From Escherichia coli (GTDB taxonomy: Bacteria > Pseudomonadota > Gammaproteobacteria > Enterobacterales > Enterobacteriaceae): a DNA stretch of 64,000 bases. Shown one piece after another: positions 21,106-22,689 of the stretch. The DNA lies in assembly GCF_024700885.2 (NCBI RefSeq), contig NZ_CP117016.1; one strand, written 5' to 3'. Numbering within the stretch: the first letter of the stretch is position 1; each line of letters begins with the position of its first letter. A program made the position numbers.

Positions 21106-22689
21106 TTACTCCAGAATGCAGCGCAAGGCGAGGAATTTCCCCGTCTCATCTCTCTGGTTTCAGAGTTACGGTGCGTTGGTAGGATTTAACGCGTACGTCT
21201 TTTCAGAAGGAAATCGACAAAGCGGGAAGTTTGCCTGGAACAGGCGGCGATTGTCAATAATGTGAAAAAGGGAACCATCAGGTTCCCTTTTGCGTTAGTG
21301 TCGGATGCCGCATTGGCGCGTAATGTTGGATGCGACGCTGGCGCGTCTTATCCGACCTACTCCGGCCTACTGCGAATTAATCTTTCAGCTTGCGCATTAC
21401 CAGCGTAGCGTTGGTGCCGCCGAAGCCGAAGCTGTTAGACATAACGGTGGTCAGTTCGCGATCGGTCGTTTCGGTCACGATGTTCAGACCCGCAGCCTGC
21501 TCGTCCAGCTCTTCAATGTTGATGCTCGGGGCGATAAAGCCGTGTTCCAGCATCAGCAGAGAGTAGATAGCTTCCTGTACGCCAGCAGCGCCCAGAGAGT
21601 GACCGGTCATTGCTTTGGTTGCAGAAATCGCCGGGCTCTTATCGCCGAACACTTCACGGATAGCCGCCAGCTCTTTCACGTCGCCAACCGGAGTCGAAGT
21701 ACCGTGGGAGTTCAGGTAGTCGATTGGGGTATCAACACCGTGCATCGCCATCTTCATGCAACGCACTGCGCCTTCGCCAGACGGAGCAACCATGTCTGCG
21801 CCATCAGACGTTGCGCCGTAGCCAACGATTTCAGCGTAGATATGAGCACCACGTGCCAACGCGTGTTCCAGTTCTTCGACCACCACCATACCGCCGCCGC
21901 CAGCGATAACGAAACCGTCACGGTGAGCGTCATAAGTACGGGAGGCTTTTTCCGGGGTGTCGTTGTATTTGGTAGACAGCGCACCCATCGCGTCGAATTC
22001 ACAAGCCATTTCCCAGCACAGCTCTTCGCCGCCACCAGCAAACACGATGTCCTGTTTGCCCAGTTGGATCTGCTCTACTGCGTTACCGATACAGTGCGCG
22101 GAAGTCGCACATGCGGAGCTGATGGAGTAGTTAACGCCGTGAATTTTAAACGGCGTGGCGAGGCAGGCAGAAACGCCGGATGCCATCGCTTTGGTGACCA
22201 CATACGGGCCAACCGCTTTCAGGCCGCGCGGGCCGCGCATTGCGTCAGCGCCGAAAACCTGGAAACGCGGGGAACCGCCGCCGGAACCTGCAATCAGGCC
22301 AACGCGCGGGTTATTCTGGTAAGCTTCCGGGGAGAGGCCAGCATCTGCAATTGCCTGCTCCATAGAAAGGAATGCATAAATGGATGCGTCGCTCATAAAG
22401 CGCACAACTTTGCGGTCAATGAGGCCAGTGGTATCCAGTTTTACGTTGCCCCAGACGTGGCTACGCATGCCGGAATCCTTCAGCTCCTGAGAGAAAGTGA
22501 TCCCTGAACGTCCTTCACGCAGAGATGCCAGGACTTCCTGCTGGTTATTACCGATGCTGGAAACAATGCCCAGGCCAGTAATCACTGCACGTTTCATTCA
22601 ATACCTCTGTAAGTCGCACATAGAGTAAGTTTCGAATGCACAATAGCGTACACTTGTACGCCGAACAAGTCCGATCAGCCAATTAATAG

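What the first reader, a model, noticed from the sequence alone, without database searches (positions are those of the whole stretch)
22645..22680. Adjacent FabR and FadR operators at fabB, with FadR sites also at fadL and fadIJ
The window holds four promoters of the fatty-acid regulon, and near-consensus FadR boxes are readable at fabB (activation), fadL (two sites) and fadIJ (repression), with a FabR palindrome abutting the FadR site at fabB. This is established biology but confirms regulatory integrity of the locus.
Basis: established knowledge. Interest (0 to 1): 0.2.

Follow-up and report, generated by a model that had tools for sequence, protein, structure and literature searches.

The report
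Known FadR/FabR operators at E. coli fabB
The flagged 36 bases are the textbook pair of binding sites through which E. coli switches its unsaturated-fatty-acid gene fabB on (FadR) and off (FabR), and the matching FadR sites at fadL and fadIJ are also present and intact, so the finding is correct but ordinary.

Summary
The window is an E. coli chromosome segment (yfcD to evgS) holding fabB, fadJI, yfcZ and fadL. Bases 22645-22680 contain, on the fabB-sense strand, the FadR box GGCTGATCGGACTTGTT (22680-22664), one base, then the FabR palindrome GGCGTACAAGTGTACGCT (22662-22645). Both are identical to published K-12 gel-shift probes.

A weight matrix built only from eight FadR sites outside the window ranks fadI, fabB and fadL site 1 as the top three of 63,984 positions. 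By score alone only fadI and fabB beat shuffled sequence. fadL site 2 is weak (5.5 bits, rank 18) and rests on identity to validated DNA.

The 36-mer occurs in 5425 of 5426 complete E. coli genomes. The composite operator is a sharp phylogenetic footprint across Enterobacterales (97 of 113 fabB upstream regions).

With the published start site (37 bp upstream of ATG), FadR overlaps the -35 element (activation) and FabR fills the 17-bp spacer (repression).

Two caveats: only three FadR-controlled promoters are evident, not four (accD has no credible box), and a nearby CpxR box carries a common SNP. Already known; low interest.

The parts
21377..22597 (-). fabB coding sequence (beta-ketoacyl-ACP synthase I)
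   Evidence: A 406-aa ORF. It is annotated fabB in genomes identical over this stretch and in K-12.
22634..22634 (-). fabB transcription start (position +/-1)
   Evidence: [quoted passage not shown] I mapped it onto the window sequence.
22640..22645 (-). fabB -10 hexamer TATTGT, sharing its first T with the FabR box
   Evidence: Inferred from the published start site and the sequence. The T-A-n-n-n-T positions are nearly invariant in 93 distinct Enterobacterales sequences. The simple promoter scanner does not call it because the hexamers are weak.
22645..22662 (.). FabR operator, an 18-bp palindrome (fabB-sense GGCGTACAAGTGTACGCT) that fills the -35/-10 spacer
   Evidence: Perfect 7+7 inverted repeat. 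It is the only match to the FabR pattern in the window, with 0 of 100 shuffles matching. It is identical to the palindrome marked in published probes. Information content across species is 1.70 bits, against about 0.5 in the flanks.
22663..22668 (-). fabB -35 hexamer TTGTTC, overlapping the promoter-proximal end of the FadR box
   Evidence: It lies 17 bp upstream of TATTGT and is invariant across species. It is retained in Rosenbergiella even though the rest of the FadR box is lost there. The assignment is inferred.
22664..22680 (.). FadR box of fabB (fabB-sense GGCTGATCGGACTTGTT), centred about -38; the activating site
   Evidence: Second-best hit of the out-of-window FadR matrix, at 14.5 bits. 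It is identical to the K-12 gel-shift probe. The 36-mer is present in 5425 of 5426 E. coli genomes. The CTGATCGGACTTGTT core is identical in 94 of the 97 composite operators.
22695..22709 (-). CpxR box of fabB, reading GTCAGgctgcGCAAA here (K-12: GTAAGgctgcGCAAA)
   Evidence: The published box lies at -112 to -98 from the start codon, with a footprint at -119 to -94. The SNP is at 22707. This allele's 43-mer is found in about 1,600 of 5426 genomes.
39454..42908 (-). fadI (41598-42908) and fadJ (39454-41598) operon, both reading frames intact
   Evidence: ORFs of 436 and 714 aa. Annotated in PCN033 and K-12.
42935..42951 (.). FadR box of fadIJ (AAGTGGTCTGACCTGAT), overlapping the predicted start site; a repressing site
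   Evidence: Best matrix hit in the whole window, at 19.4 bits. It has 2 mismatches to the consensus, with 0.06 such sites expected per window. It is identical to K-12. It lies just downstream of a candidate TTGGCT-18-AAGACT promoter. The literature places the fadIJ FadR site over the start site.
43619..43635 (.). fadL FadR site 1 (AGCTGGTCCGACCTATA), overlapping the -10 TATACT at 43632-43637
   Evidence: Third-best matrix hit, at 10.1 bits. It is identical to published probe fadL-FadR1. The spacer is 100% identical to K-12.
43643..43659 (.). fadL FadR site 2 (CACTGGTCTGATTTCTA), over the transcription start
   Evidence: Identical to published probe fadL-FadR2. [quoted passage not shown] The sequence match itself is weak: 5.5 bits, rank 18.
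43745..45085 (+). fadL coding sequence (an alternative in-frame ATG lies at 43739)
   Evidence: ORF; annotation.

Best explanation
These are the functional, already characterised operators of the E. coli fatty-acid regulon. At fabB, a FadR dimer binds the 17-bp box centred near -38, which overlaps the weak -35 hexamer TTGTTC, and helps RNA polymerase. Long-chain acyl-CoA releases FadR and lowers transcription. FabR binds the 18-bp palindrome that occupies exactly the 17-bp spacer and the first base of the -10 hexamer, and blocks polymerase when loaded with unsaturated acyl-ACP or acyl-CoA. At fadL (two boxes, over the -10 and the +1) and at fadIJ (one box over the predicted +1), FadR acts as a steric repressor that acyl-CoA relieves. 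Shown here: the presence, exact identity, ranking, conservation and geometry of the sites. Taken from the literature: protein binding, ligand response and direction of regulation.
For: The sequences are identical to K-12 gel-shift probes for fabB, fadL site 1 and fadL site 2. All four boxes are identical to K-12. A matrix trained only on eight FadR sites elsewhere in K-12 ranks fadI, fabB and fadL site 1 as numbers 1 to 3 of 63,984 positions. The chance that three top hits fall one each in those three spacers is about 2e-7. The FabR pattern is unique in the window, with 0 of 100 shuffles matching. The 36-mer is in 5425 of 5426 E. coli genomes at >=99% identity, whereas the surrounding 701 bp is >=99% identical in only 1254. 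The composite operator, with a fixed 1-bp junction, is kept in 97 of 113 fabB upstream regions spanning Enterobacterales. Its information content is 1.8 and 1.7 bits, against 0.5 in the flanks. The published start sites (fabB 37 bp and fadL 95 bp upstream of ATG) give geometry that fits activation and repression. The literature documents FadR activation and FabR repression of fabB, and FadR repression of fadL and fadIJ.
Against: Score alone does not establish every site. Shuffled windows give as many hits at >=10 bits as the real one (3.0 expected, 3 seen). fadL site 2 scores only 5.5 bits, and fabB has 4 mismatches to the consensus against 7 such sites expected by chance. The fadIJ start site is only predicted. 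Nothing was tested for this strain's own FadR or FabR, whose genes lie outside the window. Part of the conservation of the fabB boxes could come from the -35 and -10 elements embedded in them.
Confidence: 0.95

Rival explanations
1. The fabB block is conserved mainly because it is the core promoter (-35 TTGTTC, spacer, -10 TATTGT), and perhaps the divergent mnmC control region, rather than because regulators bind it.
For: The -35 and -10 hexamers lie inside or at the edges of the two boxes. Rosenbergiella keeps TTGTTC and the FabR box but has lost the rest of the FadR box.
Against: Promoter spacers are normally free to vary, yet this one is a near-invariant palindrome. The distal half of the FadR box, upstream of the -35, is equally invariant. 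Identical DNA is bound by FadR and FabR in published gel shifts, and regulation is lost in mutants.
Confidence: 0.03
2. Some of the boxes, especially fadL site 2 and the weak right half of fadL site 1, are chance resemblances with no role of their own.
For: fadL site 2 scores 5.5 bits (rank 18) and has 5 mismatches. There are 36 such positions in the window, against 50 expected. The right halves of both fadL sites score below zero.
Against: The sequence is identical to a probe that binds FadR with the same affinity as site 1 and is released by oleoyl-CoA. It sits 7 bp from site 1, directly over the published start site. The 49-mer covering both sites is >=99% identical in 5352 of 5424 matching genomes.
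Confidence: 0.02

Closest known systems
E. coli K-12 fabB promoter (FadR activator site, FabR repressor site, CpxR box)
   Same: The FadR box, FabR palindrome, 1-bp junction, -35, -10 and distance to the ATG are the same. The 158-bp spacer differs from K-12 at only two bases.
   Different: There is an A/T difference at 22682, 2 bp beyond the FadR box. There is a G/T difference at 22707, which changes the distal CpxR half-site from GTAAG to GTCAG. This allele is common among E. coli genomes.
E. coli fabA promoter composite operator (AACTGATCGGACTTGTTCAGCGTACACGTGTTAGCT)
   Same: The architecture is the same: FadR box, one base, FabR palindrome. 30 of 36 bases are identical by my count from the printed probes, including the whole CTGATCGGACTTGTTC stretch.
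   Different: The fabA palindrome is less symmetric (GTTAGCT arm). The literature reports that FadR dominates at fabA and FabR dominates at fabB. fabA also has additional start sites.
fad-regulon repressor operators (fadBA single site; fadD and fadL dual sites)
   Same: The 17-bp box is of the form aaCTGGTCnGACCwGtt and is placed over the -10 or the +1. fadL has two boxes close together, as published.
   Different: Nothing differs at fadL or fadI relative to K-12. The 17-mers as I delimit them are 7 bp apart, while the paper says 8 bp, which is a matter of where the box edges are drawn.

Membership tests
FadR (GntR-family) operator | 17-bp imperfect palindrome resembling aaCTGGTCnGACC(T/A)Gtt | tested here: met
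   Mismatches to the consensus: fadI 2, fadL site 1 3, fabB 4, fadL site 2 5. The out-of-window matrix gives 19.4, 10.1, 14.5 and 5.5 bits, at ranks 1, 3, 2 and 18 of 63,984. The match is clear for fadI and fabB, moderate for fadL site 1, and weak for fadL site 2.
FadR (GntR-family) operator | Sequence shown experimentally to bind FadR | tested here: met
   The window sequence is identical to the published gel-shift probes fabB-F, fadL-FadR1 and fadL-FadR2 across the boxes. The binding results are described. For fadI, no probe sequence was found in the papers I could read, so only identity to K-12 is shown.
FadR (GntR-family) operator | Position fits the mode of action: around -40 for activation, over the -10 or +1 for repression | tested here: met
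   The fabB box is centred about -38 from the published start site. The fadL boxes lie over TATACT and the published start site. The fadI box lies over a start site that is only predicted.
FadR (GntR-family) operator | Binding released by long-chain acyl-CoA | not testable with these tools
   Literature only.
FabR (TetR-family) operator | 18-bp palindrome of the AGCGTACA-N2-TGTACGCT type | tested here: met
   A perfect 7+7 inverted repeat at 22646-22661. It is the only match in the window, with 0 of 100 shuffles matching. It equals the palindrome marked in published probes.
FabR (TetR-family) operator | Lies immediately promoter-proximal to a FadR box, within the core promoter of fabA or fabB | tested here: met
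   There is one base between the boxes, and the palindrome fills the 17-bp spacer. The junction is fixed at one base in 95 of the 97 composite operators.
FabR (TetR-family) operator | Conserved upstream of fabB in related species (it was originally found by phylogenetic footprinting) | tested here: met
   Present in 97 of 113 sequences. Information content is 1.70 bits, against 0.49 and 0.56 in the flanks. Taxa are listed.
FabR (TetR-family) operator | FabR binding enhanced by unsaturated acyl-ACP or acyl-CoA; expression rises in a fabR mutant | not testable with these tools
   Literature only.

The most novel reading that the evidence does not exclude
The distal half-site of the published CpxR box, just upstream of the FadR and FabR operators, reads GTCAG here instead of K-12's GTAAG. 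About 29% of complete E. coli genomes share this allele, including Nissle and ABU 83972. If the change weakens CpxR binding, these lineages would induce fabB less under acid or envelope stress. That would be a natural, lineage-wide rewiring of one input to an otherwise invariant promoter.
Probability: 0.12. Interest if true: 0.3.

Novelty: already known. Interest (0 to 1): 0.06.

Why it matters
It matters little beyond annotation. The finding confirms that this strain carries the standard cis-regulatory wiring for unsaturated fatty-acid synthesis (fabB) and for fatty-acid uptake and beta-oxidation (fadL, fadIJ). It also gives exact coordinates for operators, promoter elements and start sites. 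The by-products are modest. One is a quantified footprint showing that the fabB composite operator is almost frozen across Enterobacterales. The other is a common CpxR-box polymorphism that nobody appears to have tested.

Tried and rejected
- **Promoter scanner.** The simple sigma-70 scanner found no promoter at fabB and none matching the fadL or fadI promoters. The hexamers are too weak for its thresholds, so I used published start sites instead.
- **Counting matrix hits against shuffles.** Hits at >=10 bits are not enriched over dinucleotide shuffles (3 seen, 3.0 expected). The core pattern CTGGTCNGACC with one mismatch is only mildly enriched (6 seen, 2.4 expected). Significance therefore rests on location, identity to validated DNA and conservation, not on counts.
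- **A fourth FadR-controlled promoter.** The accD-dedA and folC-accD spacers have no credible box; the best scores are 0.03 and -1.3 bits. The literature describes only cryptic low-affinity FadR effects on the acc genes.
- **A palindrome bridging the two boxes.** ACTTGTACG/C/CGAACAAGT at 22652-22670 spans the boundary between the FabR and FadR boxes. I rejected it as a separate element because the central FabR dinucleotide it depends on varies between species.
- **Other top matrix hits.** Positions 6225, 62500, 61678 and 36310 lie inside long reading frames and score below 10 bits, so I treated them as chance.
- **Papers not held.** The primary papers of Feng & Cronan 2011, Zhu et al. 2009, McCue et al. 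2001 and My et al. 2015 could not be read.
- **Printed fadI box.** A text search for the fadI box sequence found no paper that prints it.
- **Rfam.** The only match in the window at gathering score is the tRNA.

Full report
**What the window is.** The 701 bp around the finding are 100% identical to several E. coli chromosomes and match 5425 of 5426 complete E. coli genomes. Gene order follows the K-12 map: yfcD, the his transport genes, purF, accD, pdxB, fabB, mnmC, aroC, a yfc fimbrial operon, sixA, fadJ, fadI, yfcZ, fadL, mlaA, then tRNA-Arg. fabB is 21377-22597 on the minus strand. mnmC starts at 22756 on the plus strand, leaving a 158-bp divergent spacer.

**The observation at 22645-22680.**
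- The plus strand reads AGCGTACACTTGTACGCCGAACAAGTCCGATCAGCC.
- In the fabB sense this is GGCTGATCGGACTTGTT (22680-22664), then C (22663), then GGCGTACAAGTGTACGCT (22662-22645).
- The second element contains a perfect 7+7 inverted repeat, GCGTACA-N2-TGTACGC.
- Two published primer tables print the K-12 fabB gel-shift probe TCTATTAAATGGCTGATCGGACTTGTTCGGCGTACAAGTGTACGCTATTGTGCATTC, and one marks the FadR site and the FabR palindrome within it.
- The window matches this probe except for one base (22682), which lies 2 bp outside the FadR box.
- Across the whole spacer the window differs from K-12 only at 22682 and 22707.

**The other sites.**
- The fadI box AAGTGGTCTGACCTGAT is at 42935-42951.
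- The two fadL boxes are at 43619-43635 (AGCTGGTCCGACCTATA) and 43643-43659 (CACTGGTCTGATTTCTA).
- The fadL boxes with their flanks are identical to the published probes fadL-FadR1 and fadL-FadR2.
- The yfcZ-fadL spacer is 100% identical to K-12. The fadI-yfcZ spacer has four SNPs, none of them in the box (after correcting yfcZ to 43089-43373).

**Is it more than chance?**
- To avoid circularity I built a symmetrised weight matrix from FadR sites outside the window. Four were published probes (fadBA, fadD site 1, fadD site 2, fabA).
- That four-site matrix picked one clear top hit in each of the K-12 fadE, fadH, fadM and iclR upstream regions, and I added those four sites.
- The eight-site matrix ranks fadI (19.4 bits), fabB (14.5) and fadL site 1 (10.1) as the three best of 63,984 positions. 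The next hits, below 10 bits, lie inside coding sequence.
- The chance that three top hits fall one each into those three spacers is about 2e-7.
- Score alone is less decisive. Dinucleotide shuffles give 3.0 hits at >=10 bits (3 seen) and 0.27 at >=14 bits (2 seen).
- fadL site 2 scores 5.5 bits, rank 18.
- Against the review consensus AACTGGTCNGACCWGTT, the mismatch counts are fadI 2, fadL site 1 3, fabB 4 and fadL site 2 5. The window-wide expectations for those counts are 0.06, 0.8, 7.3 and 50.
- 'Near-consensus' is therefore fair for fadI and fadL site 1 but generous for the other two. Their status rests on identity to validated DNA, position and conservation.
- The FabR pattern GCKTACANNTGTAMGC, derived from the cross-species variants, occurs once in the window and in none of 100 shuffles.

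**Conservation.**
- Within E. coli, the 36-mer is found at >=99% identity in 5425 of 5426 genomes. The surrounding 701 bp is >=99% identical in only 1254 genomes.
- The fadL two-box 49-mer is >=99% identical in 5352 of 5424 matching genomes. The fadI 41-mer is >=99% identical in 5271 of 5309.
- Across species, I anchored on the coding start of fabB ([12 protein letters not shown] back-translated) in one genome per species. This returned 120 loci, of which 112 had enough upstream DNA.
- Including the window, 97 of 113 sequences carry the composite operator. Its junction is one base in 95 of them.
- These span Escherichia, Citrobacter, Enterobacter, Klebsiella, Yersinia, Serratia, Pantoea, Erwinia, Pectobacterium, Proteus, Providencia, Photorhabdus, Xenorhabdus and Edwardsiella.
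- Information content is 1.81 bits per base over the FadR box and 1.70 over the FabR box, against 0.49 and 0.56 in the flanks.
- Most of the sequences without the operator are non-Enterobacterales, such as Vibrio, Glaciecola, Ferrimonas, Porticoccaceae and Rhodospirillales.
- Others without it are Rosenbergiella (FabR box kept, FadR box lost), a Pantoea with a single substitution, and the endosymbiont Gullanella (decayed).

**How it works.**
[quoted passage not shown] That is about position 22634.
- From there the -10 hexamer is TATTGT (22645-22640) and the -35 hexamer is TTGTTC (22668-22663), 17 bp apart.
- The T, A and final T of the -10 are nearly invariant across species, which supports the assignment.
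- The FadR box is therefore centred near -38 and overlaps a weak -35. This is the arrangement the review describes for FadR as an activator.
- The FabR palindrome fills the spacer and touches the -10, an arrangement suited to blocking polymerase.
- The literature shows that FadR activates and FabR represses fabB, and that FabR is the dominant control at fabB. FabR responds to the ratio of unsaturated to saturated acyl-ACP, and acyl-CoA releases FadR.
[quoted passage not shown] That is 43644 or 43650, depending on which ATG is used. It places site 1 over the -10 TATACT (43632-43637) and site 2 over the +1. Both sites bind FadR equally well and are released by oleoyl-CoA.
- At fadI, the box lies just downstream of a candidate TTGGCT-18-AAGACT promoter, so it would cover the start site. 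This agrees with the review's statement that the fadIJ FadR site overlaps a start site that is only predicted. This step is inferred.

- I find three FadR-controlled promoters, not four. accD is in the window (13994-14908, minus strand), but its upstream spacer has no credible box. The literature describes only cryptic low-affinity FadR effects on the acc genes.
- 'Regulatory integrity' cannot be fully concluded. fadR and fabR are outside the window.
- A third published site at fabB, the CpxR box (K-12 GTAAGgctgcGCAAA, -112 to -98, footprint -119 to -94), reads GTCAGgctgcGCAAA here because of the SNP at 22707.
- The 43-mer with this allele is found in about 1,600 of 5426 genomes, including Nissle and ABU 83972. 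It is therefore a common lineage variant of unknown effect.
- The GCAAA half of the CpxR box coincides with a moderately conserved GCAAATTT block in the cross-species profile.

**Comparison with what is known, and verdict.**
- Every element is already described for K-12: FadR at fabB (Campbell and Cronan 2001), the FabR site (McCue 2001; Zhang 2002; Feng and Cronan 2011), dual FadR sites at fadL (DiRusso; Feng and Cronan 2012) and FadR control of fadIJ (Campbell 2003). These are cited as.
- The closest parallel is the fabA composite operator, which shares 30 of 36 bases by my count.
- The finding is a correct reading of textbook regulatory DNA. The novelty class is 'already known' and the interest is low.
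- The only mildly open thread is the CpxR-box polymorphism.

Noticed in passing
window 22695-22709 (SNP at 22707): The published CpxR box of the fabB promoter (K-12 GTAAGgctgcGCAAA) reads GTCAGgctgcGCAAA here. This takes the distal half-site one step further from GTAAA. The allele's 43-mer occurs in about 1,600 of 5426 complete E. coli genomes, including Nissle and ABU 83972. Its effect on acid- or Cpx-induced fabB expression is untested.
   Followed up: partly
window 22640-22668: The fabB core promoter is embedded in the operators. The -35 TTGTTC is the proximal end of the FadR box. The 17-bp spacer is the FabR palindrome. The -10 TATTGT shares its first T with the FabR box. The TAnnnT positions are nearly invariant across Enterobacterales.
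   Followed up: yes
window 22652-22670: A 9-nt inverted repeat, ACTTGTACG / C / CGAACAAGT (89% complementary), bridges the FabR and FadR boxes. It depends on the central FabR dinucleotide, which varies between species, so it is probably a by-product.
   Followed up: partly
L019 and L035 (Rosenbergiella), L098 (Candidatus Gullanella endobia), fabB upstream regions: Rosenbergiella keeps the FabR palindrome and TTGTTC but has lost the distal part of the FadR box. The endosymbiont Gullanella has a decayed operator. I did not check whether these genomes still encode fadR or fabR.
   Followed up: no
window 30107-31620: A 1514-bp IS3-family element, annotated IS1397 in identical genomes, is inserted between smrB and the yfc fimbrial operon. 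It is flanked by REP-like sequence and is absent from strain PCN033.
   Followed up: partly
window 48959-56167: After tRNA-Arg (48959-49030) comes a sucrose-utilisation (csc-like) cluster: an MFS transporter at 49475-50722 (-), a kinase at 50794-51708 (-), a 480-aa ORF at 51915-53357 (+), and a LacI-family regulator in the ORF 53365-54558 (-). A PLP-dependent enzyme follows at 54839-56167, probably dsdA. The csc and dsdA gene names are my inference from memory of this locus.
   Followed up: no
window 14909-15063: The accD upstream spacer has no credible FadR box. The best resemblance, AAGTGGTCGAACCGCGG at 15038-15054, has a good left half but scores -0.8 bits.
   Followed up: yes
window 39454-41598 versus L001 37949-40092: fadJ is an intact 714-aa reading frame in the window. 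It is annotated as frameshifted in strain PCN033, which is otherwise closely related.
   Followed up: no
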